Source: an uncultured Thiotrichales bacterium
GTDB taxonomy: Bacteria > Pseudomonadota > Gammaproteobacteria > UBA4575
DNA: 64,000 bases
Assembly (NCBI GenBank): GCA_964486815.1
Contig: CAZAOO010000004.1
Location: forward strand, 75,371 to 139,370
Direction of reading: 5' to 3'
The translations under genes and the position numbers were made by a program. Under the pieces are notes generated by a model. The model ran no database searches, was not told the DNA's origin, and worked only from the letters and a program-made list of their open reading frames with translations. Of the stretch, positions 11,403 through 45,148 are shown in pieces; the first letter of the stretch is position 1; the number at the start of each line of letters is the position of its first letter.

Positions 11403-11404
11403 CG

Positions 11405-24100: not shown

Positions 24101-24811
24101 ATGCCTAACAACACAATCACACCAGATAAATTTATACGACGTAGTTTTTTGTATAGAAAATTTGATGAACCTCAAACGACTTGGGAAGAAGTAAATGGCT
24201 ATGCAATAGTTTCTTACGTCAATAATAAAACTAACAATGCTCAAAATTTAGCTTTATGCGATTTAAGCTATTTGCAACGAATAGGTTTTAAAGGCGCTGG
24301 TGCCTGTGATTGGCTAAAGACTCAAAATATAAAAATTCCTAAGGATATAAATACAGCACTGACTACAGCGGATGACTGCATCGTCGCCAGACTTGGAAAC
24401 AACGATATATTGATATTAGACAGTATAAAAAACCAATCTAACGTACCAAAGACTTTAGAACAATCTTGGCAGCAAGACTATTCACAATCCAATAAGCCTC
24501 ACGGATTCATAGTGCCGCGACAAGATAGTCATGCATGTTTTAGTATAAGTGGAGTATGTGTTGCTGAAATGTTTTCGAAATTATGTGCAATTGACCTTCG
24601 TATGACTAAATTTGAAAATAATATGATCGTACAGACTTCTATGGCACGTCTTGGGGCAATCATAATTCGCCACGACTTAAACACACTAACAAATTATCTG
24701 GTATTAGTGGAAAGTGCCTCAGTAGAATATCTCTGGGATTGCATCATTGATGCTATGCAAGAATTCGATGGTCAAATTATTGGAACTTCTGCATTACTTA
24801 AATTAACCTAA
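24101..24811 (+). CDS. mgdD: N-methylglutamate dehydrogenase subunit D (SoxG-like gamma subunit)
   Basis: 236 aa. Assigned by size and position immediately after the SoxA-like gene, with a 6-nt gap. Confidence 0.65.
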   Translation: MPNNTITPDKFIRRSFLYRKFDEPQTTWEEVNGYAIVSYVNNKTNNAQNLALCDLSYLQRIGFKGAGACDWLKTQNIKIPKDINTALTTADDCIVARLGNNDILILDSIKNQSNVPKTLEQSWQQDYSQSNKPHGFIVPRQDSHACFSISGVCVAEMFSKLCAIDLRMTKFENNMIVQTSMARLGAIIIRHDLNTLTNYLVLVESASVEYLWDCIIDAMQEFDGQIIGTSALLKLT

Positions 24812-24935
24812 TAAGTCCTAATACTTATCAGTAGGTACTGTTACTATAATTAACCACTTATTTTATAGGTGTGAAACTATATACTGAATGAATTAATATT
24901 TTGATATTCAAATATTCGCAAAGCTTATTCTAAAG

Positions 24936-26231
24936 ATGGCTATAAATCGACGAGATTTCATAAAAGCCTCCTGTGCAGCTTCAACACTGCTCATTCCAAA
25001 ACTATCTATATCAAGGTCCAGGTCACCCTGGATCACTAAACGTGGCACTATCAAAATAGGTTTACTTTGGTCTTTAACAGGACACCTTAGTGTAATTGAA
25101 AAACCTTCACGAGATGTTGGTCTTTATTGGGCTGATAGTATTAATAAAAATGGTGGGGTCGCAGGCTTCCAAATTGAACCTGTTGTTATCGATGCAAGAT
25201 CTGATATGAAAACTTATCGGGAAGGTATTCAGAACTTGATGTTAAATGAAAATGTTTTGGCAACCTTCGGCGGATACACTTCAGCAAGCCGACGAGCTGT
25301 GATGCCATTAGTAACTTTGAATAATGGCCTCTTCTACTACCCGACTTGCTACGAAGGTAGAGAATGCTGGCAGCATATTATTTGTACCGGTCCTATTGCA
25401 AACCAACATTCTTATGACTTAATCCCTTACATGGTTAAAAACCATGGTCCCAGAGCCTATTTCATAGGGTCAAACTATATCTGGCCAAAAGAATCAAATC
25501 GAAACGCAGAGCGTTGGCTGCATAAAGCCGGTGGCAAACTCACTGGCGAATCATATATGCCACTTGGTCATGGTAATTTTGACCCAATTTTCAAAAAATT
25601 AAAAAAACACCAACCCGATTGGATTTTTTCTACTGTAATTGGAGATTCAGACTTATTTTTTAGAAAAGAGTATATCAAAGCTGGTTTTAGTCCCGATATA
25701 TTACCGACCGCTTCGTTAACAACATCTGAAATGGAAGTGAAACTAATGGGTGTGGAATATGGTGAGGGCCAGATACTTTCCGCACCTTATTTCCAAAGTC
25801 TGAGCAATGAAACTAATCAGCAATTCGTTGACCAGTTCCTAGCAAGCCAATACGGTGGTAGTGGTGTTACTCACTACAACATGGAAGAAACCTATTTAAC
25901 TTTTCTTTATTTTAAGAAAGCTGTTGAACTACTGGTTAATGAAGAAGGTGAATCTGCAATCAACCCTATGATGTTACGACAATACTCAGCTGGCTTAGAA
26001 TTAACAGAGCAAGAATCACCCGAAGGTGCAGTGCATATAGACAATAATAACTATAATAGTTGGCTTACCCCTAAAATTGGAAAGTTTGATGGCAATGGTC
26101 AGATTAAATTATTGTATCAGCAAGGTCATGCCATAGCCCCAGACCCATATATACTCTACCCTCAACGAGGCGAGTGTATGACAACTGGATTACACTTACC
26201 TAATGGCAAAGTAATCAAAGCAGCTTCTTAA
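24936..26231 (+). CDS. Tat-exported UrtA-paralog periplasmic binding protein (type-I PBP; urea/amide family), candidate ligand sensor for the downstream hybrid kinase
   Basis: Twin-arginine signal MAINRRDFIKASCAA. ~55% identity by eye to the bona fide UrtA at 29637 (GLLWS.TG.L.VIE, FGGYTSASRRAV.P, FYYPTCYEGREC, IGSNYIWPKESN, GGGVTHYNMEETYL). It is followed 55 nt later by a hybrid histidine kinase. Confidence 0.75.
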   Translation: MAINRRDFIKASCAASTLLIPKLSISRSRSPWITKRGTIKIGLLWSLTGHLSVIEKPSRDVGLYWADSINKNGGVAGFQIEPVVIDARSDMKTYREGIQNLMLNENVLATFGGYTSASRRAVMPLVTLNNGLFYYPTCYEGRECWQHIICTGPIANQHSYDLIPYMVKNHGPRAYFIGSNYIWPKESNRNAERWLHKAGGKLTGESYMPLGHGNFDPIFKKLKKHQPDWIFSTVIGDSDLFFRKEYIKAGFSPDILPTASLTTSEMEVKLMGVEYGEGQILSAPYFQSLSNETNQQFVDQFLASQYGGSGVTHYNMEETYLTFLYFKKAVELLVNEEGESAINPMMLRQYSAGLELTEQESPEGAVHIDNNNYNSWLTPKIGKFDGNGQIKLLYQQGHAIAPDPYILYPQRGECMTTGLHLPNGKVIKAAS

Positions 26232-26285
26232 TAGCATTCATATTTTTCTATTAAGATTAAATTTTATTTATTTATAAAATTAAAC

Positions 26286-28361
26286 ATGAAAAATACAGTC
26301 AAGAATATTATTAATAAAATGTCTGTTGGACAAAAAGTTCTGACAATAATATTTCTTGAAATTTTCTCTTATTCAGTAGTAACTACAATTGCACTGTCAC
26401 AAATTAGCTTGGTAGGTAATGTAGTTACGCAGACATCAGATCTATATTTACCCCTATTTAACTCATCTGAATCGATTCGACATCAAATACAAGATAGCCG
26501 ATTAAATTTAAAAGATATTATTTTTGTTGGTGACCGTGTAGTTTACGACAAGGAAGCTGAAGAAGCTTACATTGCTGCGCGTGGCCGCTACCAAGAAGCA
26601 AACAGTAAGATCAACGAAGAAATCGACTGGGCTGACAAGTTAATCAGCAAAGCTGCTTCACAAAAAGATAAACAATATAATTTAATCAGAGAATTCAGCC
26701 AGAACTTACTGCGCCAGCTATCTAGCCTTAGACAAGCCGGCCGTATTCATAATGTACGTGCTGAGAAAGTATTTCGACATGTAGAAGACGGTTCGTTCTT
26801 GATGGGAATGGAAATGGTTTCTGATGTCGAGGCAAGTGAAAAAACGCTTATTAATGAATTAGACGCACTTGTTAACGAACTAAGTAATCTTAATGATGCA
26901 TCAGTTGAATATGCAGATAGAGTTGAAAACACCGCATCCAGTTTTACTATACTTGCTTCAATCATCACTATTTGTATAGTTATCACTATTTTTTACTATG
27001 TGGTTAAAAGAAATATATCTGACCCTTTACATGCATTAACCGACACTATTAACTCCATTAGCGCATTACATGATGTTAAGGACTCAGAACAAGAAAAAGA
27101 ACTCATGTCACGCGGAGACGAACTGGGAATGGTAAGCCGAAGCTTCAGCACATTGAAACACGATTTAAGCGCACAAGATAAGAATCTGCGTAATGCAAAA
27201 GAGGAAGCTGAACGAGCAAATCGTGCAAAATCACAATTTCTGGCTGCAGCAAGTCACGACCTCCGCCAACCGCTACATGCAATGCAGATGTACATAACAG
27301 CATTACAACTAAAAATTAAAGACAAACACTTACTTAAGATAGTTTCAGATATCGATGCAGTTTCTATATCAACAGGACGTTTATTAAATTCAATCTTGGA
27401 TGTTTCACAGTTAGAAGCTGGAGCGGTAAAACCTCAAATCGAAGACTTTGCTATACAAGAAGTGTTGCACAGAGTTGCTCGTGGTTTTCGTCCAATGTCT
27501 TACCGTAAAGGAATAGCATTACATATTGTTCCATCAAAAGCATATGTGCGCAGCGATCCTATTCTATTAGAACAAATCATAGGAAACTTTGTTGCCAATG
27601 CCATCCGCTACACAGAAACAGGACGTGTATTATTAGGATGTAGACGTAGAAAAGGAAAACTATCTATTGAAGTTTTGGACACAGGGCCAGGCATACCCTT
27701 ACATCAACGTGATGCAATCTTCGATGATTTTCATCAACTAGATAATAAAGAACGCGATCGAGGCAAGGGACTTGGTCTTGGATTAGCAATAGTTCGGCGA
27801 CTTTCTATATGCCTAGACCATCAAATAGAACATACTTCCAGAGTTAACCAAGGATCACGTTTTGCTGTAATTGTCGAAATGGGTAATCGGCCCGCAAAAA
27901 ACATTCAACCAAGAAGGTATGAAACAACTTTGCTAGATTTAAATAATACTTCGGTATTGTTGATCGAAGATGATGCAATGGTGCTAAATGCAACCAAACA
28001 ACTTCTTGAGTCTTGGGGATGTAATGTAATCTGTGCTAAATCGGCAATAGAAGCAGAACGATTATTGTTTGACCCACAGAAAATTCCGGACATCATTATT
28101 GCTGACTACCGTCTACCAGAGAGTGTTAATGGCGTACAAGCCATTAATAATATTACTACGAAACTAGGCTATCCAATTCCCGCGTTTATTATTACAGGTG
28201 AAGCGAACACCAGCGAAGTTCGTAAAATTGCAGACCACGGTTACCACGTACTATCAAAACCAGTCCATCCTGCAAAATTAAGAGCGCTTATCTCTCATTT
28301 AATTCATGAGCCTAGGGATACTTTATTACCAACAGATCAACTCAAGATATCTGTTTTATGA
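26286..28361 (+). CDS. Hybrid sensor histidine kinase/response regulator with a ~180-aa periplasmic domain
   Basis: Two transmembrane segments bracket a periplasmic region, followed by HAMP-like, HisKA (AAASHDLRQPLHAM), HATPase_c (GLGLGLAIVRRL) and a C-terminal receiver (VLLIEDDAMVL...IIADYRLPE) domain. Confidence 0.85.
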   Translation: MKNTVKNIINKMSVGQKVLTIIFLEIFSYSVVTTIALSQISLVGNVVTQTSDLYLPLFNSSESIRHQIQDSRLNLKDIIFVGDRVVYDKEAEEAYIAARGRYQEANSKINEEIDWADKLISKAASQKDKQYNLIREFSQNLLRQLSSLRQAGRIHNVRAEKVFRHVEDGSFLMGMEMVSDVEASEKTLINELDALVNELSNLNDASVEYADRVENTASSFTILASIITICIVITIFYYVVKRNISDPLHALTDTINSISALHDVKDSEQEKELMSRGDELGMVSRSFSTLKHDLSAQDKNLRNAKEEAERANRAKSQFLAAASHDLRQPLHAMQMYITALQLKIKDKHLLKIVSDIDAVSISTGRLLNSILDVSQLEAGAVKPQIEDFAIQEVLHRVARGFRPMSYRKGIALHIVPSKAYVRSDPILLEQIIGNFVANAIRYTETGRVLLGCRRRKGKLSIEVLDTGPGIPLHQRDAIFDDFHQLDNKERDRGKGLGLGLAIVRRLSICLDHQIEHTSRVNQGSRFAVIVEMGNRPAKNIQPRRYETTLLDLNNTSVLLIEDDAMVLNATKQLLESWGCNVICAKSAIEAERLLFDPQKIPDIIIADYRLPESVNGVQAINNITTKLGYPIPAFIITGEANTSEVRKIADHGYHVLSKPVHPAKLRALISHLIHEPRDTLLPTDQLKISVL

Positions 28362-28441
28362 ATTCTCTTTTTATGAATTCTGGCTCATTGAAGTTTGGAC
28401 AAAAATATAGTCTGAAGCTAGAACATACATCTATCCCAGAT

Positions 28442-29140
28442 TTATGAATATTCTTTATCTCTTTTAAGTTGCGAGTACATGGCCACAGCTTCCGTACGGT
28501 TTTGTACGTTTAAAGTTTTAAAAATGCGAGATGAATGCATTTTAACTGTCCCGACATTTAAACCAAGATCATTTGCAATGTCTCTGTTCGGTTTACCAAG
28601 CGCCATGAGGTCTAATACTTCCAGTTGTCGCGGTGTAAGTTGCGTGTAGCCCTTCTCTAAAGAGCTCCCAAATGATTCTGCTGTGTAAGTTTGCTCAAGT
28701 GCTTGATCATCGCTAGATGAAACTGTCCCTAAAATATGTGGAGGTACATACACTCCACCAGATAAAACCAATTTTATTGCACTCATCATCACTTCTGGTG
28801 ATGATGTTTTAGGTATATAGCCCATTGCGCCCGCAGCCAGAGCGCTACGTATTGCTGCTATATGCTCTCTAACCGAGACTACGATTACGGGTACATCAGG
28901 CCACTCTTTACAAATTTGTTTAATACCTTCCATGCCACTCATACCAGGCATTAAAAGATCCAGCAATAATAAATCTACAGAGTTACCTTCATTTAGAAAG
29001 TCTAAAGTTTGCTTAAAACCACTAGTCTCGACAATTTCTACATTCTCTTGAACTAATTTAACTAATTGAACAAGACCGCCACGTACCAATGCATGATCAT
29101 CTGCTACCACAATTCTAAAAATTGAAGAATCAACACTCAT
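28442..29140 (-). CDS. NarL/FixJ (LuxR-type) response regulator
   Basis: Receiver domain (IVVADDHALVRGGL, LLLLDLLMPGMSG) and a C-terminal LuxR HTH (LTPRQLEVLDLMALGKPNRDIANDLGLNVGTVKMH). It is divergent from urtA. Confidence 0.85.
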   Translation of the reverse strand: MSVDSSIFRIVVADDHALVRGGLVQLVKLVQENVEIVETSGFKQTLDFLNEGNSVDLLLLDLLMPGMSGMEGIKQICKEWPDVPVIVVSVREHIAAIRSALAAGAMGYIPKTSSPEVMMSAIKLVLSGGVYVPPHILGTVSSSDDQALEQTYTAESFGSSLEKGYTQLTPRQLEVLDLMALGKPNRDIANDLGLNVGTVKMHSSRIFKTLNVQNRTEAVAMYSQLKRDKEYS

Positions 29141-29420
29141 AAGAATTCAAATAATTACTCTTGTTTTTATAGCCTTTAGCCAACAATTAATTCTGTTTGC
29201 TGCCTATTCAAGTAAATAAGCACAAGGAATTATGTACAATAATAAGCAAAGAAATTGAATGCAATACATTTCTCAAGTAATTGAATAATAGATAATTTTA
29301 AATACTCTCATCCTAAACTTAAGCAGAAATCTATTTGTAATGATGACTGTTTTACCAATATCTTAATTCACACACATATCAGTATTAACGTGATTTGCCA
29401 TTATGACAGATACGTAAGGC

Positions 29421-29492
29421 TATATGTATTGACCCAGTTGCCTATATATGATTCACTATATGCCATAAGTCTATATACTTATGACCGTGTCC
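29421..29492. promoter_or_regulatory. Conserved promoter/operator block upstream of urtA; TTGACC...ATATATGATTCACT...GCCATAAGT-N6-ACTTATGAC
   Basis: The sequence tattgacccagttgcctatatatgattcactatatgccataagtctatatacttatgacc is re-found with few changes upstream of dmfA1 (34865-34935). The palindromic core is shared with 50748-50782. Confidence 0.4.
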
Positions 29493-29636: not shown

Positions 29637-30971
29637 ATGAAGAAAAACAAGCCTATTAGTAATAAACGAAGAGCGATCCTCAAAGGTTCGGCTGCAGGCG
29701 TTACTGCAGCGGCTTTAGGATTCCCATCGTTTTTTGTTAAAAACGCATCCGCTGCTACACCTTGGATAAAGAAGGGTGATAAAACCATTAAAGTAGGCTT
29801 ACTTTGGTCTACAACTGGAAATTTAGCGGTTATTGAAAACGACTCAACTCAAGTTGCTCTATATGCAATCGATGAAATCAATGCCGCGGGGGGGGTTGCT
29901 GGAAAAATGATTGAACCCATCGTTATTGATGCTAAATCAGACATAAAAGTCTATTCAGAAAAAATAAGTCAGTTGATCTTAAAAGATCGCGTAATTTCAA
30001 CCTTCGGTGGCTACACATCAGCAAGTCGTCGTGCAGTTGCACCGATTGTAATGGCACGCGATCATCTTTTCTACTACCCAACCTGCTATGAGGGTCGCGA
30101 ATGCACACAAAACATTATTAACACTGGGCCGTTAGCAAACCAACATTCACAAGACCTTATTCCATTCATGGTGAAGGAATTTGGCCCTAAATGTTATTTA
30201 ATTGGTTCCAACTACATTTGGCCAAAAGAGTCCAATAAAAATGCCAAAGTGTGGTTAGAACGTGCAGGTGGTGAAATAGTAGGTGAAGATTATGTACCGC
30301 TTGGTGGTTCAGAATTCATACCAGTTTTCAATAAAGTACGTCAAGCCAAGCCAGACTTTATCTTCTCAACAGTTGTAGGTGATTCAGATATCGCTATGCA
30401 CAAACAATTCTTACAAGAAGGCTTTAAGTCCGACAAACTCCCTATTGCTGCACTTACAACAGGGGAGATTGAAATACGCGCTATGGGTGCCGAAGCTGGT
30501 GCTGGACATTTCCTTTCTGCACCTTATTTCCAAACTCTGGACAACCCTACTAATCAGAAATTTGTAGAAGGTTATCTAGGTAGTAAATATGGTGGTGGAG
30601 GTGTAACCCATTACAATATGGAAGAAACATATCTATCGCTATATGTATGGAAGTATGGTTTAGAGAAGGCGTTAAAAGAAACCGGCAATATCGAAGACAT
30701 TACTCCACGTATGATTCGTGATGTTTCTGGCGGCATAAGAGTTGAAGACGATGTTTCTCCAGAAGGCTTGATTTGGATTGATCCTGACAACTTCAATACT
30801 TGGCTTAAACCAAAAATAGGTCAATGTGGATCAGACGGTCAATTCAAGATAGTAAAAGCTGCTGATGAGCATGTTGCACCGGATCCGATGTCAATCTATC
30901 CAGAACGAGGCGTATGCAAGGCAGATGGTTTACATACACCGGACGGAGAAATTAAAACCAACGTGCTTTAA
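29637..30971 (+). CDS. urtA: Urea ABC transporter substrate-binding protein
   Basis: 444 aa type-I PBP with a Sec/Tat-like signal (RRAILKGSAAGV). It is followed by the urtBCDE permease and ATPase genes. Confidence 0.9.
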   Translation: MKKNKPISNKRRAILKGSAAGVTAAALGFPSFFVKNASAATPWIKKGDKTIKVGLLWSTTGNLAVIENDSTQVALYAIDEINAAGGVAGKMIEPIVIDAKSDIKVYSEKISQLILKDRVISTFGGYTSASRRAVAPIVMARDHLFYYPTCYEGRECTQNIINTGPLANQHSQDLIPFMVKEFGPKCYLIGSNYIWPKESNKNAKVWLERAGGEIVGEDYVPLGGSEFIPVFNKVRQAKPDFIFSTVVGDSDIAMHKQFLQEGFKSDKLPIAALTTGEIEIRAMGAEAGAGHFLSAPYFQTLDNPTNQKFVEGYLGSKYGGGGVTHYNMEETYLSLYVWKYGLEKALKETGNIEDITPRMIRDVSGGIRVEDDVSPEGLIWIDPDNFNTWLKPKIGQCGSDGQFKIVKAADEHVAPDPMSIYPERGVCKADGLHTPDGEIKTNVL

Positions 30972-31197: not shown

Positions 31198-32100
31198 ATG
31201 AGCCTTCATGATTTTTGGACCCCTTTTTCTTTATATCCATTTTTAAATGCACTTTTTATTGGAATTAGCCTCGCAAGTATTTTTTTTATTGCTGCACTGG
31301 GACTAACCATAATTTATGGTGCGATGGGTGTCATTAACATGGCACATGGTGAATTCATCATGTTGGGTGCATATACAACTTATGTATTTCAACATTTTTT
31401 AGGCGTGCCATTTCTACTCTGTTTGCCCTTGGCTTTTATTGTGCTTGCATTAATTGGCTTACTGATTGAACGAGGAATCATACGGACGCTCTATCAACGA
31501 CCGTTAGATACACTATTAGCAACCTGGGGATTATCACTAATTTTAATACAAGGTATACGCTTAATTTTTGGTGGTGATCCCAAATACATAGGAGTGCCTA
31601 AATTTTTAGATTTTCAAATCGCAGCCAACTTTATTCATTTATCAGGAGTACGGCTCTTCATAATTATTTTTGCAATTTTAATCGGTTTTGCAACTTGGTT
31701 CCTGATGTACAAAACCACTCTAGGGATGCGGGTCCGTGCAGTGATGCAAGATAAAGAAATGGCGGCATCTTTTGGTATCGATGCTAATAAGATTTACAGC
31801 ATTACTTTCGCTTATGGCGCTGGATTGGCAGGTGTTGCAGGAGCTTTGTTTGGTGCACTGAAAACACTATTCCCTGATATGGGTAGCGGTTATATTGTTG
31901 AAGCTTTTCTAGTAGTAGTAGTTGGAGGTATCGGGCTGCTTGGCAGTATGTTTAGCTCAGCTATTCTTGGACAATTGAGTTCAATATTCTCATACTTTAC
32001 CAACGAAACCTTCGCACGCTTCATTTTGTTTACACTCATTGTTATATTTCTTAGATTTCGTCCACAAGGCCTTATCACTGATGGGGCAACGCGACGCTAG
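31198..32100 (+). CDS. urtB: Urea ABC transporter permease (LivH-like)
   Basis: 300 aa polytopic LivH-family permease. Confidence 0.9.
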   Translation: MSLHDFWTPFSLYPFLNALFIGISLASIFFIAALGLTIIYGAMGVINMAHGEFIMLGAYTTYVFQHFLGVPFLLCLPLAFIVLALIGLLIERGIIRTLYQRPLDTLLATWGLSLILIQGIRLIFGGDPKYIGVPKFLDFQIAANFIHLSGVRLFIIIFAILIGFATWFLMYKTTLGMRVRAVMQDKEMAASFGIDANKIYSITFAYGAGLAGVAGALFGALKTLFPDMGSGYIVEAFLVVVVGGIGLLGSMFSSAILGQLSSIFSYFTNETFARFILFTLIVIFLRFRPQGLITDGATRR

Positions 32101-32139
32101 TTATAAGAACCGCACTATAGAATCTGGAGAATTAACAAA

Positions 32140-33231
32140 ATGAATGGCAATATTTATCACAATCGCAAAGCACAGTGGGCTATTTATATTGTGGTATTTG
32201 TGTTGCTTGCGTTGTTACCTTTTGTATTTGATAACCCTTTCACCTTAAACCAGTTTGCTCGTTATATTATTTTTTCATTAGCGGCTGTATCGGTATCGTT
32301 GGTTTGGGGATATGGCGGAATATTAAGCTTAGGCCAAGGCATTGCTTTTGGAATGGGTGCTTATGGAATGGGTGCCACGATGCAAATGCAATTTCAAGAT
32401 CCTGAATCGGATCCGATTCCTACATTCATGTTGACCAACGAATTAGAATCCTTGCCTCTAGTTTGGGAACCGTTCTGGTCAACACCTATTGGGTTATCGT
32501 TAGCCATTGGAATACCAACACTATTCTTTTTAGTTTTTGGTTACATGATGTTTCAAGCAAGAGTCGCGGGAGTGTTCGTGGCTATTATGACCTTAGCAAT
32601 GCTTTCGGCGTGGTATAGCGTGACATACGACATGCAACCTTTTACTGCAGGTTTTAATGGTATTTCACCACCGTCACCCTTTGAAATATTTGGTACGCAG
32701 ATTGATCCCTATAGTTCGACTGCCTATTGGATTTGTGTTGCTTTTCTCGCCATTCTAACTTTAGGTACTAAATTTATGTTGCATACAAAATTTGGACTCA
32801 TCGTACAAGCCATGCGCGATGATCCAGAACGCGCACGATTCTTAGGTTACAGCGTGGCTTACTATCAAACAGTTTTGTTTACTCTTTCAGGATTCATTGC
32901 TGCTTGTGCAGGAATATTATGGGTCATGATTACCCAATATGTATCACCTACTTCAATGGAAATTATGTTAAGTATTTCTTTTGTCATTTGGGCAGCTGTG
33001 GGTGGTCGTACCTCATTACTAGGGGCTATTATTGGAGCCTTTTTAATTAATTGGGGGCAAAGTTATGCAGGTGATGAGTTTAGACAATTATGGCTAATCA
33101 TTATCGGAAGCATATTTCTAGTGGTTGTATTATTTCTTCCAAAAGGGATCACAGGACTGTTTGAATATTTATTAGGAAAAATTTCTGGAAACAATAGTGA
33201 AGCTAATAATACAACGGGGCAAAAAGTATAA
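32140..33231 (+). CDS. urtC: Urea ABC transporter permease (LivM-like)
   Basis: 363 aa LivM-family permease with an N-terminal extension. The stop overlaps the urtD start (TAATG). Confidence 0.9.
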   Translation: MNGNIYHNRKAQWAIYIVVFVLLALLPFVFDNPFTLNQFARYIIFSLAAVSVSLVWGYGGILSLGQGIAFGMGAYGMGATMQMQFQDPESDPIPTFMLTNELESLPLVWEPFWSTPIGLSLAIGIPTLFFLVFGYMMFQARVAGVFVAIMTLAMLSAWYSVTYDMQPFTAGFNGISPPSPFEIFGTQIDPYSSTAYWICVAFLAILTLGTKFMLHTKFGLIVQAMRDDPERARFLGYSVAYYQTVLFTLSGFIAACAGILWVMITQYVSPTSMEIMLSISFVIWAAVGGRTSLLGAIIGAFLINWGQSYAGDEFRQLWLIIIGSIFLVVVLFLPKGITGLFEYLLGKISGNNSEANNTTGQKV

Positions 33232-33974
33232 TGGCAATACTTGAGCTTAAAGAAGTTACAAAAAAATATAATGATTTTTCAGTCATTAATGGATTAAACC
33301 TCAGTGTCAATGAAGGTGAATTACGATGCTTAATTGGCCCTAATGGTGCAGGCAAAACCACTTCATTAGACTTGATTACTGGTCGTCAAAAGCTCACTTC
33401 GGGAACCGTACACTTTGATGGTAAAAATATCACAAAGTTAATGGAGAAACAGATAGCTATCTTAGGCATAGGTAGAAAATTTCAAATACCTGCGATATTT
33501 AAGGAATTAACCGTGCGAGAAAATTTTGAAGTAGCACTTACTAGCAAAATTGGCCCATTTCAAAACATGAATCCATTCTCTACAAATAGAGGAAAAAATC
33601 ACTATAACAAGATTATAGAGCTTACAGGTTTAGGCAGCCGACTAAATGATATTGCTGGTTTACTATCTCATGGAGAAACTCAGTGGTTAGAAATTGGTAT
33701 GGTGCTAATGCAAAAACCACGACTATTGTTGATGGATGAACCTACCGCAGGGATGACCGAACAAGAAACAGAAAAAACTTCAGAGATTTTTAAAGAATTA
33801 AAAGGTGACCACACTTTAGTTGTAGTCGAGCACGATATGTCTTTTGTGAAAAGTATTGCTGATGTTATCTCTGTTATGCATCAAGGCTGCATGCTTGCCG
33901 AAGGAACCTTATCTGAGATTGAACAGCACCCTAAAGTTAAAGAAGTATATCTCGGCACAGAAGGAATTAATTAA
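33231..33974 (+). CDS. urtD: Urea ABC transporter ATP-binding protein
   Basis: Walker A GPNGAGKTT, signature LSHGETQWLEIG, Walker B LLLMDEPTAGM. Confidence 0.9.
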   Translation: MAILELKEVTKKYNDFSVINGLNLSVNEGELRCLIGPNGAGKTTSLDLITGRQKLTSGTVHFDGKNITKLMEKQIAILGIGRKFQIPAIFKELTVRENFEVALTSKIGPFQNMNPFSTNRGKNHYNKIIELTGLGSRLNDIAGLLSHGETQWLEIGMVLMQKPRLLLMDEPTAGMTEQETEKTSEIFKELKGDHTLVVVEHDMSFVKSIADVISVMHQGCMLAEGTLSEIEQHPKVKEVYLGTEGIN

Positions 33975-33975
33975 C

Positions 33976-34671
33976 ATGCTAGAACTAAATAATGTTACTT
34001 CCTTCTATGGCAAAACACCCATCCTTCAGGGTATCAATATCTCCATGCAAGAAGGCCAATGTCTATGTGTTCTTGGCCGAAATGGCGTAGGCAAAACCAC
34101 ATTGCTACAAACCATTATGGGTCTTACAACGAGCATGACGGGCACACTAAAAATCAATAATCAGGACTTTTCTAACCAACCCACGCATGCACGCGCGCAT
34201 GCAGGCTTAGGCTATGTACCTCAGGGTCGTAGAATTTTAGGGAAATTCAGTGTGCGTGAAAATATTGTACTTGGCACTTTCGCACGCAACGACAAATCCA
34301 ACTCACTACCGGAATCTTGTTTGAAACTATTCCCTTATCTGGCAGATAATCTTGATAAACGTGCAGGTTTACTATCTGGTGGGCAACAACAACAACTCGC
34401 CGTAGCAAGAGCCTTAGCAACGGACCCAAAAGTTTTATTGCTCGATGAGCCCACGGAAGGCATTCAACCTAATATCGTAGAAGAAATACAAAACACCCTA
34501 CATCATTTAAATAAAGATATGGGAATGACACTGGTTCTGACTGAACAACACATAAAAATTGCTAAAAAATTAGCAGACTTATTTATTATCATGGATATCG
34601 GCCACATTGTCGCACATGGCCCGATTAGTGAACTCACTGAAGAGCTTGCGCATAAGCACTTGACTATTTGA
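33976..34671 (+). CDS. urtE: Urea ABC transporter ATP-binding protein
   Basis: Walker A GRNGVGKTT, signature LSGGQQQQLAVA, Walker B LLLDEPTEG. The ATG at 33976 directly after the urtD stop is preferred over the longer overlapping ORF at 33856. Confidence 0.85.
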   Translation: MLELNNVTSFYGKTPILQGINISMQEGQCLCVLGRNGVGKTTLLQTIMGLTTSMTGTLKINNQDFSNQPTHARAHAGLGYVPQGRRILGKFSVRENIVLGTFARNDKSNSLPESCLKLFPYLADNLDKRAGLLSGGQQQQLAVARALATDPKVLLLDEPTEGIQPNIVEEIQNTLHHLNKDMGMTLVLTEQHIKIAKKLADLFIIMDIGHIVAHGPISELTEELAHKHLTI

Positions 34672-34864: not shown

Positions 34865-34935
34865 TTCTATATTGACCTATAAGCCAATATATGATTCACT
34901 TATGGTCATTAGACAGTAGTCTTTTGGCTATAATT
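34865..34935. promoter_or_regulatory. Second copy of the conserved promoter/operator block, upstream of dmfA1
   Basis: The sequence ttctatattgacctataagccaatatatgattcacttatggtcattag aligns with 29421-29492. TTGACC, ATATATGATTCACT and the half-site ACTTATGG are shared. Confidence 0.4.
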
Positions 34936-35060: not shown

Positions 35061-35510
35061 ATGATATCTATACCTAAAAAAGGAACTCCTGAACGTGAAA
35101 GACTTATCGCTACTCACAAGGAATGTATCGAATCCATGAAAGGTGTACCTGGCTGCACCATCATGAAGTGTGAAACTCAAGGCGACACCACCAACATTTC
35201 AGGTGGATTTCAAGAAGACCCATTACTAAATAAAGTTTTAATTCGCATGCGCACAGCCATGCCAGGAAACTTTGGAGGAAAATTAGTAGTGATTTGTACA
35301 AAAGTAGAAAAAGAATGGCGTATTGGACGGCTATCAGGTATTCGCGGTGTTCCACCAACATTTGTCGGTAAGAAAGTTTATGACAACGAACAAGATCCGC
35401 AACATGACATCTTCTTAATGCGCTTAGATGAACTAGATGAAGAAGATGGATATCCCGAGCACTTTAATGAAGGTTGGAAACGTCGAAATGATAATTGGAC
35501 GGTAACCTAG
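35061..35510 (+). CDS. dmfA1: N,N-dimethylformamidase small (alpha) subunit-like protein
   Basis: 149 aa with a GGAGG RBS. It is positioned immediately upstream of the large-subunit gene, as in known dmfA1A2 operons. The segment RIGRLSGIRGVPPTFVGKKVYDNEQDPQHDIFLMRLDEL is homologous to the 113-aa small protein at 44755 and to the C-terminus of the permease at 45149. Confidence 0.55.
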   Translation: MISIPKKGTPERERLIATHKECIESMKGVPGCTIMKCETQGDTTNISGGFQEDPLLNKVLIRMRTAMPGNFGGKLVVICTKVEKEWRIGRLSGIRGVPPTFVGKKVYDNEQDPQHDIFLMRLDELDEEDGYPEHFNEGWKRRNDNWTVT

Positions 35511-35563
35511 ATAACGGATTAGACATAATAAATAAAGAATAATTTAGATCAGGAGAACATGAT

Positions 35564-37963
35564 ATGTGTGCAATGAGATTAACGGGTTACGCTGATAAGT
35601 TTGGCGTCCATCCCGGAGATACAATTAAATTCCATGTGAATTGTGACGGACCCAAAAAATATGATTGCCAAATCGTAAAAATGATTCATGGCGATACTAA
35701 TCCACGTGGCCCTGGGTTTATTGAAAAAAAAGTTTCTGCTAAATGTAACGGTGAATATAAAGGTAGACCACAAACTATCTATAGTGGTTCTTATGGTTAC
35801 ACAGATGACTTCAGCCACTTTCAAGTTGAATCCTTTACTATGCAGTGTTGGATTTGGCCAACAACACCAAAAACGCATCCAAAATATTGGCGTCATGGTG
35901 CGCAAGGTTTAATGACAAAATGGTGTAAGGGCAAAGGTTATGGATTATTTATTAACGAAGATGGTTGTTTGGAATTACGCATAAACAACAAGAAAATTAC
36001 CACAGGTGCCCCCATCCGTGATCATGCCTGGCATTTTGTTGCTGCAACGTTTGATGCTAAAACTGGCAAGGCAACTCTTTATCATGAGCCACAGATTCAG
36101 TATGCCTTGGACCCTGATATCCCACCTGTTACAGAGAAAATTAGCGGTAAAATCCAACACACTGATGGTGTTCCATTTGCAGTAGCAGCGTATGCGGATG
36201 GCGCAAGTTCAAATCCGCAGGCACAAGCTTCACGCCCTGCAGGCATGATCATGACAGGCCATTACAATGGCAAAATCGATAGCCCAAGACTGTGTAGACG
36301 CGCATTAAGTCGACAAGATATTGAAACCATGAAGCTTGGTGCACAGCCCGGCTTAACTGAACGCCGACATAGTGGTCCTACAGGCCCATTGTCTGAAGCT
36401 ATAGTGGGTGCATGGGATTTCTCAGATGGAATAAACACCATGGTAGGCATAGATCACGGTCCATACTTATATGACTTAGAAATTGTAAATTGTCCAACTC
36501 GAGCAATGACCGGATATAACTTCTCGGGTCACAACTTTGATTGGAAACACGCACCTGAAGAATACGGTGCAATTCATTTTCACGATGACGATGTCGATGA
36601 TGCACGCTGGGATGTTGATTTCGAATGGGATGTACCTAAAGGCACTGACAGTAAATTTTATGCTGCAAAACTAACCACAGATTCTGGTGACGAAGAATAC
36701 ATACCGTTTTGGGTGGTTCCACATGTTGGCGAAGAGACCGCTAAAATTGCTTACATGGTGCCAACGATTAGTTATATGGCTTATGCAAACGAACACCTTG
36801 CAAACAATGCAGGTGGTGCAGAATTGTTAGTCTATCGTGTACCGATCATGCAAGACCAAAACATGTTTTTAAGTGAACACCGTGAATATGGTGGTTCTAT
36901 TTATGACACCCATACAGATGGTAGTGGTCTATGTTTGTCATCGCGTTTACGACCAATCTTGAGTATTCGTCCGAAATACGATCACTTTTTAATGCAAGCT
37001 CCATGGCAATACCCTGCTGATCTACACATGATCTATTGGCTGGAAGAAATGGGCTACGAATATGATTGTATTACCGACGAAGATGTTACCTATGATGGTC
37101 TAGCACGACTTGAGAATTACAATGTCGTAATAACGGGTTCTCACCCAGAGCACAACAGTGGTCCACAACTAGATGCTTTACATAACTATACACAACAAGG
37201 TGGACGCTTGATGTATATGGGTGCTGATGCTTGGTATTGGATCCATTCGTATCATCCTGCATACGATAATTTAGGTCGAGGCATTGTTACCGAGATGCGT
37301 CGTTGCGAATCTGGTATTCGCACCTGGCGTGCAGATCCTGGTGAGTATTATCACCAAGGCACTGGTGAACTCGGTGGTATGTGGCGTTATCGCGGTCGCT
37401 ATCTGCACTCCGTTGCCGGTACTGGAATGTCTTCAGAAGGTTTCGATATTTCTTCCTACTACTCACGAACTTATGAAAGTAAAGATCCTCGTATATCTTG
37501 GGCATTTGACGGCATTGCTTATGATGAGAAGATTGGAAACTTTGGTTTAGTCGGTGGTGGTGCCGCAGGAACAGAGCTCGACATTGTCGATACTATGTTA
37601 GGTTCTCCTCCGCACACCTTAGTAGGTGCTACTTCTGCTGGGCGTCACACGGAAGCTTACCTTTTGGTAATGGAAGACTATGGCTTTAGCCAGCAAGGTA
37701 TTGATGGTACACAACATCCACGTGTTCGATCTGATATTGCATTTCATGAAACTCCGAATGGTGGTGGATGTTTTGCATTTAGCTCAATAGCTTTTTGTGG
37801 ATCACTTCCATGGAACAATGGTAAGAACAACATTTCTACATTAGTAGGAAATGTTTTAGATCGTTTCATGAAAGATGGACCATTACCTGCAGCACCTAAG
37901 AGCGCTTACATTCATCGTGGACGTGCAGATCACGATCCAGCAATGAACAAAAAAGCGAAGTAA
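35564..37963 (+). CDS. dmfA2: N,N-dimethylformamidase large (beta) subunit
   Basis: 799 aa. N-terminal strings MRLTGYADKFGVHPGDTIKFHVNCDG...HGDTNPRGPGFIEKKV plus the overall length and domain layout fit the DMFase beta subunit (~760-800 aa). It is a paralogue of the 773-aa ORF at 42395. Confidence 0.7.
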   Translation: MCAMRLTGYADKFGVHPGDTIKFHVNCDGPKKYDCQIVKMIHGDTNPRGPGFIEKKVSAKCNGEYKGRPQTIYSGSYGYTDDFSHFQVESFTMQCWIWPTTPKTHPKYWRHGAQGLMTKWCKGKGYGLFINEDGCLELRINNKKITTGAPIRDHAWHFVAATFDAKTGKATLYHEPQIQYALDPDIPPVTEKISGKIQHTDGVPFAVAAYADGASSNPQAQASRPAGMIMTGHYNGKIDSPRLCRRALSRQDIETMKLGAQPGLTERRHSGPTGPLSEAIVGAWDFSDGINTMVGIDHGPYLYDLEIVNCPTRAMTGYNFSGHNFDWKHAPEEYGAIHFHDDDVDDARWDVDFEWDVPKGTDSKFYAAKLTTDSGDEEYIPFWVVPHVGEETAKIAYMVPTISYMAYANEHLANNAGGAELLVYRVPIMQDQNMFLSEHREYGGSIYDTHTDGSGLCLSSRLRPILSIRPKYDHFLMQAPWQYPADLHMIYWLEEMGYEYDCITDEDVTYDGLARLENYNVVITGSHPEHNSGPQLDALHNYTQQGGRLMYMGADAWYWIHSYHPAYDNLGRGIVTEMRRCESGIRTWRADPGEYYHQGTGELGGMWRYRGRYLHSVAGTGMSSEGFDISSYYSRTYESKDPRISWAFDGIAYDEKIGNFGLVGGGAAGTELDIVDTMLGSPPHTLVGATSAGRHTEAYLLVMEDYGFSQQGIDGTQHPRVRSDIAFHETPNGGGCFAFSSIAFCGSLPWNNGKNNISTLVGNVLDRFMKDGPLPAAPKSAYIHRGRADHDPAMNKKAK

Positions 37964-39291: not shown

Positions 39292-39326
39292 TAATCCTGG
39301 AAATTAAAATAATATTAGATTAAGTA

Positions 39327-40013: not shown

Positions 40014-40060
40014 ACCTAACAGCTAATAATCGGCCAAATTTTTATTTACTAGCTATATTT

Positions 40061-40366: not shown

Positions 40367-40488
40367 TGGGTTATTGCATAAATATGCTTACATTAAATTT
40401 AATGTAATTAATTTGATGAAAGTTTTTTTACATGTCTTCTTGCTAAACCCGGTATAAGGTAGTGTCCGAGCTACCTAGGTAAATTAGA

Positions 40489-44716: not shown

Positions 44717-44754
44717 TTTTTATTATTCCCAGATTAAATAGTTATCCATTAAAT

Positions 44755-45096: not shown

Positions 45097-45148
45097 TTCA
45101 ATTTCTTCTTCAATGGATATGGATTAATATTATTATTAATTATTCTTA

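What the first reader, a model, noticed from the sequence alone, without database searches (positions are those of the whole stretch)
24936..29140. UrtA-paralog binding protein plus hybrid histidine kinase plus LuxR-type regulator: a TorT/TorS-style periplasmic urea/amide sensor?
A Tat-exported paralogue of UrtA is encoded 55 nt upstream of a hybrid sensor kinase that has a ~180-aa periplasmic domain. A NarL-type response regulator is encoded divergently and abuts the urtA promoter. The arrangement mirrors the TorT-TorS and LuxP-LuxQ systems, in which a binding protein signals to a hybrid kinase. Together with the shared operator motif, this points to ligand-binding-protein-mediated sensing of urea or short amides controlling urt, dmf and ure expression. 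This would be distinct from the cytoplasmic AmiC/AmiR logic used for amiE in the same window.
Basis: inference. Interest (0 to 1): 0.65.

Follow-up and report, generated by a model that had tools for sequence, protein, structure and literature searches.

The report
Binding-protein-dependent amide sensor kinase module
A periplasmic binding protein related to urea and amide binders is always encoded directly in front of a membrane sensor kinase, next to an amide-uptake and amide-hydrolysis gene cluster, so it most likely acts as the kinase's detachable ligand sensor; this pairing is uncharacterised but follows a known signalling principle.

Summary
Window 24936-26231 encodes a twin-arginine-signal, UrtA/AmiC-family binding protein (SBP). 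A hybrid histidine kinase (HK) with a ~175-aa periplasmic domain starts 54 nt downstream. A REC+LuxR-type regulator (RR) lies convergent to the HK and divergent from a urtABCDE-like operon.

In all 37 related loci with readable upstream DNA, seeded from either the HK or the SBP and spanning four phyla, the SBP gene sits directly upstream of the HK. Sensor SBPs form their own clade, apart from the transporter SBPs, and carry an invariant C-terminal (K/R)(A/S)AS tail. The HK sensor is a single four-helix bundle, not TorS- or LuxQ-like. Its only near-invariant stretches are the two membrane-distal apex loops.

The module mostly travels with a DMFase-family iron amidase and an AmiC-like-pocket transporter, not with urease. 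A small N-alkyl amide or alkylurea is therefore a likelier ligand than urea.

The palindrome is real and conserved upstream of the urtA-like and dmf-like genes. It lies at about +1 of the best promoter-like element, and what binds it is unknown.

Verdict: a probable new SBP-dependent two-component family. The logic resembles TorT/TorS and, more closely, XylFII-LytS. The ligand, the phosphorelay route and the operator assignment are unproven.

The parts
24811..24828 (.). Exact copy of the palindrome core ATAAGT-N6-ACTTAT, 108 nt upstream of the SBP start codon
   Evidence: 2 exact copies in the window against 0.01 expected. This copy is not conserved in related loci.
24853..24909 (+). Conserved upstream block of the SBP-HK operon (ACCACTTATTTTATAGGTGTG ... 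ATGAATTAATATTTTGATATTCA); candidate promoter or regulatory region
   Evidence: Alignment of the upstream regions of 10 gammaproteobacterial loci; sequence read.
24936..26231 (+). Sensor SBP, 431 aa, UrtA/AmiC family (Peripla_BP_5). Twin-arginine signal at residues 4-10, mature protein from about residue 30, invariant C-terminal VIKAAS tail.
   Evidence: AF2 model has pLDDT 83. Best folds are urea-binding proteins and AmiC.
26286..28361 (+). Hybrid sensor histidine kinase, 691 aa: TM1, periplasmic four-helix bundle, TM2, HAMP, HisKA (H324), HATPase, REC (D607); no Hpt
26406..26933 (+). Periplasmic sensor domain of the HK (about aa 41-216); predicted single four-helix bundle with no Pfam family
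   Evidence: AF2 model, weak Foldseek hits to PcaY, NarQ and Tsr ligand-binding domains, no Pfam match upstream of residue 240.
26529..26552 (+). Apex loop 1 motif GDRVVYDK (aa 82-89); proposed SBP docking surface
   Evidence: 5 of 6 loop positions are invariant in 30 orthologues.
26778..26813 (+). Apex loop 2 motif HVEDGSFLMGME (aa 165-176); proposed SBP docking surface
   Evidence: 7 of 13 positions are invariant. It changes to IEFGSYLMG(M/K)E in the subfamily whose SBP pocket also changes.
27225..27875 (+). HisKA and HATPase catalytic core
   Evidence: Closest NCBIfam is the NahK/ErcS family, 367.7 bits against a cut-off of 400.
27954..28292 (+). C-terminal receiver domain of the HK
   Evidence: It is a separate gene in L001 and L002. 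Hpt is fused in other family members.
28442..29140 (-). Response regulator, 232 aa, REC (D61) plus GerE/LuxR HTH (NarL/FixJ class)
   Evidence: Orthologues lie next to the SBP-HK pair in at least 17 loci.
29429..29457 (+). Conserved promoter-like block TTGACC-N17-TTCACT, with TG one base upstream of the second hexamer
   Evidence: Phylogenetic footprint in 8 loci. The same block occurs upstream of dmf-alpha.
29462..29485 (.). 24-bp palindrome GCCATAAGT-CTATAT-ACTTATGAC (operator or 5' RNA hairpin) upstream of the urtA-like gene
   Evidence: The core is identical in L004, L008, L009, L010 and L012. L011 carries a symmetric variant. As RNA it folds at -6.7 kcal/mol.
29637..30971 (+). Transporter SBP, 444 aa, UrtA/AmiC family, twin-arginine signal; sits at the head of the ABC operon
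31198..34671 (+). urtBCDE-like genes: two permeases and two ATPases
34884..34926 (.). dmf promoter block (ATATGATTCACT) and degenerate palindrome GTCATTAGA-CAGTAG-TCTTTTGGC (34903-34926)
   Evidence: L008 has GCCATAAGA-CAGTAG-ACTTTTGGC at the same position. As RNA it folds at -10.8 kcal/mol.
35061..37963 (+). DMFase-family amidase: small (149 aa) and large (799 aa) subunits; likely the main regulated target
   Evidence: Fe ligands Y399, Y440 and E521 of 6LVB are conserved. It is 71% identical to the pAMI5 paralogue.

Best explanation
Proposed mechanism: a three-component sensing module.

1. The Tat-exported binding protein (24936-26231) is a signalling-only paralogue of the transporter SBP (29637-30971). 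It binds the same small amide-type solute in the periplasm (inferred).
2. The liganded protein docks on the membrane-distal apex of the kinase's periplasmic four-helix bundle, at the loops GDRVVYDK and HVEDGSFLMGME (inferred).
3. Docking changes signalling through HAMP to the kinase core (H324).
4. The phosphoryl group reaches the LuxR-type regulator (D61). It travels either directly, with the fused REC (D607) acting as a sink or modulator, or through an unlinked Hpt protein (inferred).
5. The regulator then controls the adjacent urtABCDE-like importer and the DMFase-family amidase operon (inferred).

The ligand is most likely a small N-alkyl amide or alkylurea (for example N-methylformamide, N-methylacetamide, DMF or methylurea) rather than urea.

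What is shown: gene architecture, domain content, invariant synteny, separate clades, and the conservation pattern. What is inferred: the SBP-HK contact, the ligand, the phosphotransfer route and the regulon.
For: 1. Invariant adjacency.
- Every HK-seeded locus with upstream sequence has the SBP gene directly upstream. That is 4 metagenome contigs plus 29 of 30 reference-genome loci. The thirtieth starts inside the HK.
- All 4 SBP-seeded contigs have an HK directly downstream.
- The hosts are Gamma- and Alphaproteobacteria, a Verrucomicrobiaceae MAG and a Nitrospina MAG.

2. The pair stays together when everything else changes.
- The REC is fused, or a separate gene.
- Hpt and PAS domains are added in some members.
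- The target operon differs, being a Peripla_BP_4 ABC system in L001, L002, L027, L028 and L030.

3. Sensor SBPs are a distinct lineage.
- They are monophyletic and separate from transporter SBPs.
- 162 of the 191 positions conserved in both groups are identical, including the pocket motifs YTSASRR, YYPTCYEG, SNY(I/V)WP.ESN and HYNMEETY.
- The (V/I)(K/R)(A/S)AS-COOH tail is present in 30 of 30 sensors and in no transporter.

4. Localisation fits. The twin-arginine motif is conserved in the sensors whose N-terminal region could be read, about half of those examined. The HK loop between the two TM segments is periplasmic by the positive-inside rule.

5. HK sensor conservation is focused at the apex. 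The apex loops score 0.94 and 0.90 (majority-residue fraction). The helices score 0.55-0.74 and the membrane-proximal loop 0.30.

6. In the subfamily whose SBP pocket changes (YPASYPG, NNVRSQE), the HK apex motif changes too (IEFGSY).

7. Independent recruitment. On Paracoccus aminophilus pAMI5, a signal-less homologue (50% identical) is in an operon with a soluble PAS-HK and a NarL-type RR. That operon lies next to the orthologous amidase.

8. Kinase core and RR have matching best families, NahK/ErcS and ErdR.

9. Precedents for SBP-stimulated kinases, including the mono-modular four-helix-bundle LytS with the SBP paralogue XylFII, are reviewed in PMC8050422.
Against: - No physical or genetic evidence exists.
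- The HK sensor model is only moderate (pLDDT 74, 8 sequences), and its Foldseek matches are weak (E about 1e-2).
- Apex conservation could equally reflect a direct small-molecule site.
- Gene adjacency is also expected if the SBP merely shares regulation with the kinase.
- The HK lacks Hpt, and none is encoded in the window, so the path to the RR is undefined.
- In most alphaproteobacterial loci no RR lies within 10 kb downstream.
- The ligand is inferred only from motif comparison and neighbourhood.
- The pAMI5 orthologue of the amidase is reported as not linked to DMF use (PMC4543880).
Confidence: 0.65

Rival explanations
1. The upstream SBP is just a second, accessory substrate-binding protein for the UrtBCDE-like importer. 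The kinase senses its signal directly through the four-helix bundle, as NarX and Tar do.
For: - The two SBPs share almost all pocket motifs, and ABC systems often have extra SBPs.
- Four-helix-bundle sensors commonly bind small ligands directly; the best structural matches are PcaY, NarQ and Tsr.
- Public annotation calls these proteins 'urea transport system substrate-binding protein'.
Against: - The SBP stays with the HK, not with the permease genes. In alphaproteobacterial loci it lies at the far end of the cluster next to the HK, while the transporter keeps its own SBP.
- In L001, L002, L027, L028, L030, L031 and L040 there is no urt-like permease nearby, yet the SBP-HK pair persists.
- Sensor SBPs form their own clade with a private C-terminal tail.
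Confidence: 0.12
2. This is the first reader's version: the ligand is urea (or urea plus short amides), and the system is the master switch for the urt, dmf and ure operons through the GCCATAAGT palindrome bound by the LuxR-type RR.
For: - The SBP fold is closest to solved urea-binding proteins (8TG1, 7S6F, 8HIC).
- Urease genes lie in the window, and 2 kb downstream of the HK in L013.
- Palindromes with the same 9-mer occur upstream of urtA, dmf-alpha and in the liv/ure intergenic region.
Against: - Both SBPs fail the UrtA equivalog cut-off.
- At four motif positions they resemble AmiC rather than the urea binders: YTS against WTS; YPTCYEG against YP(V/I)QYEG; NYIWPKESN against DYVFPRT(A/S)N; STVIGDS against NTLNGD.
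- About 26 loci link the module to the DMFase-family amidase, and only 2 link it to urease.
- The palindrome lies at about +1 to +24 of the conserved TTGACC-N17-TGnTTCACT element, an unusual place for an activator.
- No data connect the palindrome to this RR.
Confidence: 0.15
3. The conserved palindrome is not the RR's site. Either it is the operator of a different repressor, with the recurrent XRE-HTH plus cupin regulator at 14316-14981 as the leading candidate, or it acts as a 5'-terminal RNA hairpin of the urt-like and dmf-like transcripts. The RR would then bind elsewhere, for example at the conserved ACTTAAGT element just upstream of the TTGACC hexamer.
For: - Position relative to the conserved promoter-like block.
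- HTH-cupin genes sit next to the SBP-HK pair in L023, L025 and L038, and upstream of the linked mgs genes in the gammaproteobacterial loci.
- All copies have a 6-nt centre and fold as hairpins: -6.7, -10.8 and -21.7 kcal/mol, with z-scores of -2.2 to -5.5.
- L011 carries a symmetric, pair-preserving double change, ATTAGT...ACTAAT.
Against: - LuxR/NarL-type dimers also bind inverted repeats and can repress.
- An exact GCCATAAGT half-site recurs upstream of dmf-alpha in Mesorhizobium, where an orthologous RR is divergent.
- There is no Rfam family here, and only one compensatory event.
Confidence: 0.45
4. The SBP has a dual role. It both delivers substrate to the UrtBCDE-like permease and signals to the kinase, as ChvE, GltB and BctC do.
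For: - The pocket motifs are nearly identical to those of the transporter SBP.
- Dual-function SBPs are documented (PMC8050422).
Against: - The transporter keeps its own SBP at the head of the operon in every locus where it can be seen.
- The sensor clade persists without urt-like permeases in several loci.
Confidence: 0.15

Closest known systems
XylFII-LytS/YesN (Clostridium beijerinckii)
   Same: A signalling-only paralogue of a transporter SBP is encoded next to a kinase with a mono-modular four-helix-bundle periplasmic domain. The system controls the ABC importer for the same solute (PMC8050422).
   Different: - XylFII belongs to a different SBP family (Peripla_BP_4).
- LytS has a different kinase class and a different regulator type from the LuxR-type RR here.
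- In the crystal structure XylFII binds the side of the bundle, whereas conservation here points to the apex.
- There is no sequence homology.
TorT-TorS-TorR (E. coli, Vibrio parahaemolyticus)
   Same: A periplasmic binding protein without its own transporter signals to a hybrid kinase. The ligand is a small methylated nitrogen compound.
   Different: - TorS has a two-tier helical sensor and a fused Hpt.
- TorT is Peripla_BP_1.
- TorR is OmpR-type.
- The window HK scores 229.6 bits against a 676.5 cut-off for TIGR02956, and only over its kinase core.
LuxP-LuxQ
   Same: An SBP and a hybrid kinase lacking Hpt, with ligand-dependent switching of kinase and phosphatase activity.
   Different: - The LuxQ sensor is a dCache-like double PAS domain.
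- LuxP is Peripla_BP_4.
- The relay goes through LuxU to LuxO.
- NF041947 scores 183 bits against a cut-off of 1200.
AmiC-AmiR (Pseudomonas aeruginosa; also present at window 10800-12583)
   Same: The binding-protein family and pocket motifs are the same (38% identity; YPT.YEG, NYI.P.ESN). The protein is used as a sensor rather than for transport, and the target is amide catabolism.
   Different: - AmiC is cytoplasmic and sequesters an ANTAR antiterminator.
- Here the protein is exported and paired with a membrane kinase and a DNA-binding regulator.
Tar-MBP, Trg-RBP/GBP and Tsr-LsrB chemoreceptor systems
   Same: A liganded SBP docks on the membrane-distal apex of a single four-helix-bundle sensor. 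Remote HMM relatives of the window's sensor domain are chemoreceptors.
   Different: The output is chemotaxis rather than a kinase and regulator, and those SBPs also serve transporters.
Paracoccus aminophilus pAMI5 locus (JCM7686_RS20350-20370)
   Same: It has an orthologous DMFase-family amidase (71% identity) and an SBP-like protein (50% identity) in an operon with a kinase and a NarL-type RR.
   Different: - The binding protein has no signal peptide.
- The kinase is a soluble PAS-PAS-HisKA_3 protein unrelated to the window HK.
- It is uncharacterised, and the amidase is reported as not linked to DMF use (PMC4543880).

Membership tests
UrtA urea ABC transporter SBP (TIGR03407) | Score at or above the curated cut-off of 492.75 bits | tested here: not met
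   The sensor SBP scores 278.7 bits and the transporter SBP 323.0 bits.
UrtA urea ABC transporter SBP (TIGR03407) | Motifs shared by the solved urea binders (WTS; YP(V/I)QYEG; DYVFPRT(A/S)N; NTLNGD) | tested here: not met
   The window SBPs have YTS, YPTCYEG, NYIWPKESN and STVIGDS, which are closer to AmiC. The assignment of these motifs to the pocket rests partly on memory of the AmiC T106 and csUBP Q114 literature.
Peripla_BP_5 / AmiC-UrtA type I binding-protein fold | Pfam PF13433 match and a two-lobe fold | tested here: met
   E = 1.5e-98. The AF2 model has pLDDT 83. Foldseek top hits are 8TG1, 7S6F and 1PEA, with TM-scores of 0.74-0.87.
Tat-exported protein | Twin-arginine motif (S/T-R-R-x-F-L-K) followed by a hydrophobic region | tested here: met
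   NRRDFIK at residues 4-10. RR-x-F-(L/V/I) is conserved in the orthologues with a readable N-terminus, about half of those examined. Export itself cannot be tested here.
SBP-dependent sensor kinases (functional class) | SBP gene adjacent to the kinase gene and co-inherited with it | tested here: met
   37 of 37 loci.
SBP-dependent sensor kinases (functional class) | Physical SBP-sensor domain interaction that modulates kinase activity | not testable with these tools
Only indirect evidence is available (apex conservation).
TorS (TIGR02956 / PRK11466) | TorS-type two-tier sensor domain, fused Hpt, and a score above the cut-off | tested here: not met
   Scores are 229.6 against 676.5 and 154.9 against 982, with the match confined essentially to the cytoplasmic transmitter region (kinase core and REC). 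The sensor is a single bundle of about 175 aa. There is no Hpt.
LuxQ (NF041947) | LuxQ-periplasm (dCache-like) sensor and a score above the cut-off | tested here: not met
   183.2 bits against 1200. The sensor is predicted to be all-helical.
NahK/ErcS family hybrid kinase core (NF041832) | Score at or above 400 bits over the HisKA-HATPase-REC region | tested here: not met
   367.7 bits over residues 309-672. This is the closest family but falls just below the cut-off.
NarL/FixJ (LuxR-type) response regulators | REC domain with acidic pocket and conserved Lys, plus a C-terminal GerE HTH | tested here: met
   PF00072 at 1.3e-23 and PF00196 at 4.5e-16. D14/D15, D61 and K111 are present.
ErdR (NF041830) | Score at or above 390 bits | tested here: not met
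   129.8 bits; this is the best hit only.
N,N-dimethylformamidase (DMFase) family, for the linked target enzyme | Large subunit with DMFA2_C domain, Fe(III) ligands Tyr-Tyr-Glu, and a small alpha subunit | tested here: met
   - PF20254 at 5.4e-86.
- Y399, Y440, H519 and E521 of 6LVB align to identical residues.
- Orthologues of the 149-aa ORF match PF26354 DMF_alpha.
- DMF as the substrate was not tested. The enzyme is 40% identical to 6LVB and 71% identical to the pAMI5 paralogue, which is not linked to DMF use (PMC4543880).

The most novel reading that the evidence does not exclude
This would be a previously unrecognised and widespread three-component sensing family, found in marine and soil Proteobacteria and in Verrucomicrobia and Nitrospinota MAGs.

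- A Tat-exported AmiC/UrtA-family protein with a signature C-terminal KAAS tail docks on the apex of a new four-helix-bundle kinase sensor.
- It reports an as yet unidentified small N-alkyl amide or alkylurea.
- That signal switches on an uncharacterised iron amidase of the DMFase family, whose methylamine product feeds the adjacent N-methylglutamate pathway.

The same binding-protein family would then serve three different signalling architectures: AmiC-AmiR antitermination, the periplasmic SBP-HK pair, and a cytoplasmic SBP-like protein with a PAS-HK in Paracoccus.
Probability: 0.45. Interest if true: 0.7.

Novelty: new variant of a known kind. Interest (0 to 1): 0.55.

Why it matters
SBP-stimulated kinases are known from about a dozen systems. 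None of them uses the UrtA/AmiC (Peripla_BP_5) family, and none senses amides or urea (review PMC8050422).

In public data these sensor proteins are annotated as urea-transport proteins. Metagenomic surveys may therefore over-count urea uptake and miss a regulatory system.

The module marks an uncharacterised DMFase-family amidase pathway. DmfA proteins from Alpha- and Gammaproteobacteria have been detected in Pacific metaproteomes (PMC9477243). Identifying the SBP's ligand would be a direct route to the natural substrate of that enzyme.

Cultured carriers exist, so the prediction can be tested: Aminobacter anthyllidis, Mesorhizobium sp. Root552 and Hyphomicrobium sp. GJ21.

Tried and rejected
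There is therefore no interface model.
- tblastn of the HK sensor against plasmids found nothing.
- An Rfam scan of the whole window found nothing.
- Literature searches found no description of such a system: UrtA plus histidine kinase, 8TG1, UrtA crystal structure, and AmiC-like/UrtA-like.
- The Dziewit 2010 DmfR paper (PMC2837997) is not held.
- The ErdR paper gives no motif in its text.
- I considered an ANTAR-type dual-hexaloop target for the palindromes. I rejected it because there is only one hairpin and the loops lack the A1/G4 pattern (from memory of Ramesh et al. 2012).
- I considered a sigma-54 promoter (TGGCAT-N8-GC at about 29545). I dropped it because it is not conserved in L004 or L008.
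- I looked for an Hpt protein among all ORFs of at least 100 aa. None was found.
- The organism could not be named. The closest genomes are uncultured Thiotrichales and Gammaproteobacteria MAGs.

Full report
**1. Observation**

- ORF 24936-26231 (+) encodes a 431-aa Peripla_BP_5/Peripla_BP_6 protein (E = 1.5e-98) with an N-terminal NRRDFIK twin-arginine motif.
- ORF 26286-28361 (+) starts 54 nt later and encodes a 691-aa kinase. Hydrophobic segments lie at about residues 18-38 and 216-242. HAMP, HisKA (H324), HATPase and a C-terminal receiver (D607) follow, with no Hpt.
- ORF 28442-29140 (-) encodes a 232-aa REC plus GerE regulator (D61). It is convergent with the kinase and divergent, across 496 nt, from a second binding-protein gene (29637-30971). 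That gene heads a urtBCDE-like permease/ATPase operon.
- The two binding proteins are 54% identical. The sensor is 38% identical to the AmiC encoded at 11405-12583.
- Both binding proteins fall well below NCBI's UrtA cut-off (279 and 323 bits against 492.75).

**2. Neighbourhood**

The window is an island for small nitrogen and C1 compounds.

- amiE-amiR-amiC and a urea transporter.
- An HTH-cupin regulator.
- N-methylglutamate-pathway genes (mgsABC-like, gmaS-like, four sarcosine-oxidase-like subunits).
- The SBP-HK pair and the RR.
- The urt-like ABC system.
- A DMFase-family amidase (149 aa plus 799 aa) followed by conserved accessory genes.
- A second DMFase-family enzyme with a liv-type ABC system on the other strand.
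- A urease cluster.

**3. Is the SBP-kinase pairing more than chance?**

- The kinase's N-terminal 311 residues have few relatives (15 by word-indexed search). An exhaustive profile search found 21 cluster representatives at E below 1e-30.
- All four metagenome contigs carrying a relative have a Peripla_BP_5 gene directly upstream.
- A pattern scan of 185,579 reference genomes returned 30 loci. In 29 the SBP gene is immediately upstream of the kinase. The thirtieth begins inside the kinase.
- Starting instead from the SBP, four further contigs were examined: Aminobacter anthyllidis, a Tara Oceans scaffold, a JGI metagenome and an ENA metagenome. All four have a kinase starting within 56 nt downstream or overlapping the SBP stop codon.
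- The hosts span Gamma- and Alphaproteobacteria, a Verrucomicrobiaceae MAG and a Nitrospina MAG.
- The pair persists while its surroundings vary:
  - the receiver is fused, or a separate gene;
  - PAS and Hpt modules are added in some members;
  - the regulator is convergent, divergent or in the same operon;
  - five loci replace the urt/dmf genes with a Peripla_BP_4 ABC system.

**4. The binding protein**

- Sensor SBPs from 30 loci form one clade, separate from the transporter SBPs of the same genomes and from the Paracoccus protein.
- Of the 191 alignment positions conserved within both groups, 162 carry the same residue. These include the motifs that line the cleft in this fold (YTSASRR, YYPTCYEG, SNY(I/V)WP.ESN, HYNMEETY).
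- 29 positions differ. The most striking is the extreme C-terminus: (V/I)(K/R)(A/S)AS in 30 of 30 sensors against TNVL in transporters.
- Twin-arginine motifs are conserved in the sensors whose N-terminal region could be read, about half of those examined.
- The AF2 model (pLDDT 83) is a standard two-lobe binding protein. It is closest to Caldicellulosiruptor and cyanobacterial urea-binding proteins and to AmiC.
- At four motifs the window proteins resemble AmiC rather than the solved urea binders. Examples are YPTCYEG against YP(V/I)QYEG, and YTS against WTS.
- That these positions contact the ligand is partly from memory (the AmiC T106N specificity mutant and csUBP Q114). It should be treated as a lead.

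**5. The kinase sensor**

- AF2 (pLDDT 74, shallow alignment) predicts one antiparallel four-helix bundle between the two membrane helices.
- There is no Pfam family for it.
- Foldseek finds only weak matches, to PcaY, NarQ and Tsr ligand-binding domains. It finds none to TorS or LuxQ.
- Remote HMM relatives are chemoreceptors with a four-helix bundle and HAMP.
- Across 30 orthologues the two membrane-distal loops are nearly invariant. GDRVVYDK (82-89) and HVEDGSFLMGME (165-176) have majority-residue fractions of 0.94 and 0.90.
- The helices score 0.55-0.74 and the membrane-proximal loop 0.30.
- The apex is where maltose-binding protein is modelled to dock on Tar (PMC8050422).
- In the five-locus subfamily whose SBP pocket motifs change (YPASYPG, NNVRSQE), the second apex motif also changes, to IEFGSYLMG.
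- This pattern fits a conserved protein-protein surface. It does not exclude a direct ligand site.

**6. Regulator and phosphorelay**

- The kinase core is closest to the NahK/ErcS family (367.7 bits against 400). The regulator is closest to ErdR (129.8 bits against 390). Neither is a member.
- Orthologous regulators (51-88% identity) sit next to the pair in at least 17 loci.
- No Hpt protein is encoded in the window, although some family members carry a fused Hpt.
- Whether phosphate passes directly from H324 to the regulator or through D607 and an unlinked Hpt cannot be decided here.

**7. What is sensed and what is controlled**

- About 26 loci place the module beside the urt-like importer and the DMFase-family amidase. 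Urease is close only here and in L013.
- The 799-aa protein keeps the Tyr-Tyr-Glu iron ligands of the solved DMFase (40% identity to 6LVB).
- It is the orthologue (71%) of the Paracoccus aminophilus pAMI5 paralogue. That paralogue is reported as not linked to DMF use (PMC4543880).
- The same structural family includes an N-acetyl-beta-phenylalanine acylase, so the substrate is open.
- In the gammaproteobacterial loci the module abuts methylamine-assimilation genes. This fits an N-methyl amide or methylurea that releases methylamine.
- On pAMI5 a signal-less homologue of the SBP is in an operon with a soluble PAS kinase and a NarL-type regulator, next to the amidase. This is an independent, cytoplasmic version of the same idea.

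**8. The palindrome**

- GCCATAAGT-N6-ACTTATGRC at 29462-29485 is real. The 12-base core occurs twice in the window against 0.01 expected.
- It is identical at the same position, about 180 nt upstream of the urtA-like start, in five diverged gammaproteobacterial loci. L011 carries a symmetric variant.
- A degenerate copy lies upstream of dmf-alpha (34903-34926), also conserved. Both follow a conserved TTGACC-N17-(TG)nTTCACT block.
- Read as a promoter, that block puts the palindrome at about +1 to +24. The consensus scan instead reads TTCACT-16-TATACT, which would put the palindrome over the -10.
- Either reading suggests a repressor site or a 5' RNA hairpin rather than a classical activator site.
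- The copy at 24811 upstream of the SBP gene is not conserved in relatives.
- The liv/ure intergenic copy is a 38-bp perfect palindrome.
- An HTH-cupin regulator recurs with the module and is an equally plausible binder.
- The link between the regulator and the palindrome, and control of ure, therefore remain hypotheses.

**9. Comparison with known systems**

- The logic is that of SBP-stimulated kinases.
- The closest precedent is XylFII-LytS: a signalling-only SBP paralogue, a mono-modular four-helix-bundle kinase, and control of the cognate ABC importer.
- TorT-TorS and LuxP-LuxQ share the principle but not the folds. Membership of either family fails on score and domain content.
- The 2021 review of such systems lists 13 SBP families. 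It lists no urea or amide sensor and no Peripla_BP_5 member. My searches found no later description.
- The binding protein is a relative of AmiC, which senses amides in the cytoplasm by a different output mechanism.

**10. Verdict**

- The core interpretation, a binding protein signalling to the kinase, is well supported by comparative genomics but has no physical evidence (confidence 0.65).
- The TorS/LuxQ analogy is functional only.
- The ligand is more likely a small N-alkyl amide or alkylurea than urea.
- The operator-regulator link is open.
- I rate it a new variant of a known kind, of moderate interest. It is readily testable in cultured Aminobacter, Mesorhizobium or Hyphomicrobium strains.

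Noticed in passing
window 42395-50515 (- strand): There is a second DMFase-family cluster: a 773-aa large-subunit homologue, a 113-aa ORF with no family, two liv-type permeases, two ATPases and a 448-aa Peripla_BP_6 SBP. The window therefore holds two paralogous amidase-plus-importer units with different transporter types.
   Followed up: partly
window 42130-42265 and 50620-50760: A segment of about 135 nt downstream of the second amidase gene duplicates the promoter and leader region of the liv-type SBP gene. The duplicate includes the RBS and start of a small ORF and a GCCATAAGT half-site. It looks like a remnant of a duplication.
   Followed up: no
window about 50556-50636 (- strand): A 26-codon upstream ORF (MSRNIKELADSLSQYRLSIFESLKMKYI) with its own RBS precedes the liv-type SBP gene. 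It may be a leader peptide (read).
   Followed up: no
window 50747-50784: A 38-bp palindrome centred on a 6-nt spacer lies in the liv/ure divergent intergenic region. Its ends are GCCATAAGT and ACTTATGGC. It folds as a 16-bp hairpin at -21.7 kcal/mol, z = -5.5.
   Followed up: partly
window 14316-14981; L023, L025, L038: An XRE-type HTH plus cupin regulator recurs next to the SBP-HK pair in Mesorhizobium and Aminobacter, and upstream of the linked mgs genes in the gammaproteobacterial loci. It is a candidate second regulator of the same regulon.
   Followed up: partly
window 26214-26231 (last six codons of the SBP gene); all sensor SBPs in L001-L035: The sensor SBPs end in an invariant (V/I)(K/R)(A/S)AS-COOH tail. 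The tail is absent from transporter SBPs and from the Paracoccus cytoplasmic homologue. Its function is unknown.
   Followed up: partly
L001, L002, L027, L028, L030: A sister subfamily has altered SBP cleft motifs (YPASYPG, NNVRSQE) and an altered HK apex motif (IEFGSYLMG). It lies next to a Peripla_BP_4 ABC system instead of the urt/dmf genes, and presumably senses a different ligand.
   Followed up: partly
L005 (Paracoccus aminophilus pAMI5, record 62418-68953): This is a cytoplasmic counterpart: a signal-less AmiC/UrtA-like protein, a soluble PAS-PAS-HisKA_3 kinase and a NarL-type regulator, divergent from the orthologous dmfA1/A2-like genes.
   Followed up: yes
window 38077-41859; L003, L013-L035, L038: Three to four genes always follow the DMFase-family genes: a 404-aa protein with weak similarity to oxygenase alpha subunits, a Sel1-repeat protein, a 101-aa protein with no family, and often a 456-aa DUF748/YhdP-like protein. 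Their roles are unknown.
   Followed up: no
window 29408-29418 and orthologous positions: The element ATACTTAAG(T/G) is an 8-bp palindrome ACTTAAGT in L009 and L015. It is conserved about 10 nt upstream of the TTGACC hexamer in the RR-urtA intergenic region. It is an alternative regulator site at an activator-type position.
   Followed up: no
window 50992-57405: The urease cluster has the order ureE-ureF-(fused ureA/B, 231 aa)-ureC-ureG-ureD. A NicO-like nickel transporter and a B3_4-domain protein follow.
   Followed up: no
L004, L007, L009 compared with window, L008, L010, L012: Related gammaproteobacterial loci differ in whether the four sarcosine-oxidase-like (mgd-like) genes lie between the gmaS-like gene and the SBP gene.
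   Followed up: no
L040 (JGI 3300009481): Here the sensor SBP is preceded by a porin-like gene. It is followed by a 1197-aa HAMP-PAS-HK-REC-Hpt kinase, within a cluster of three other very large hybrid kinases.
   Followed up: no
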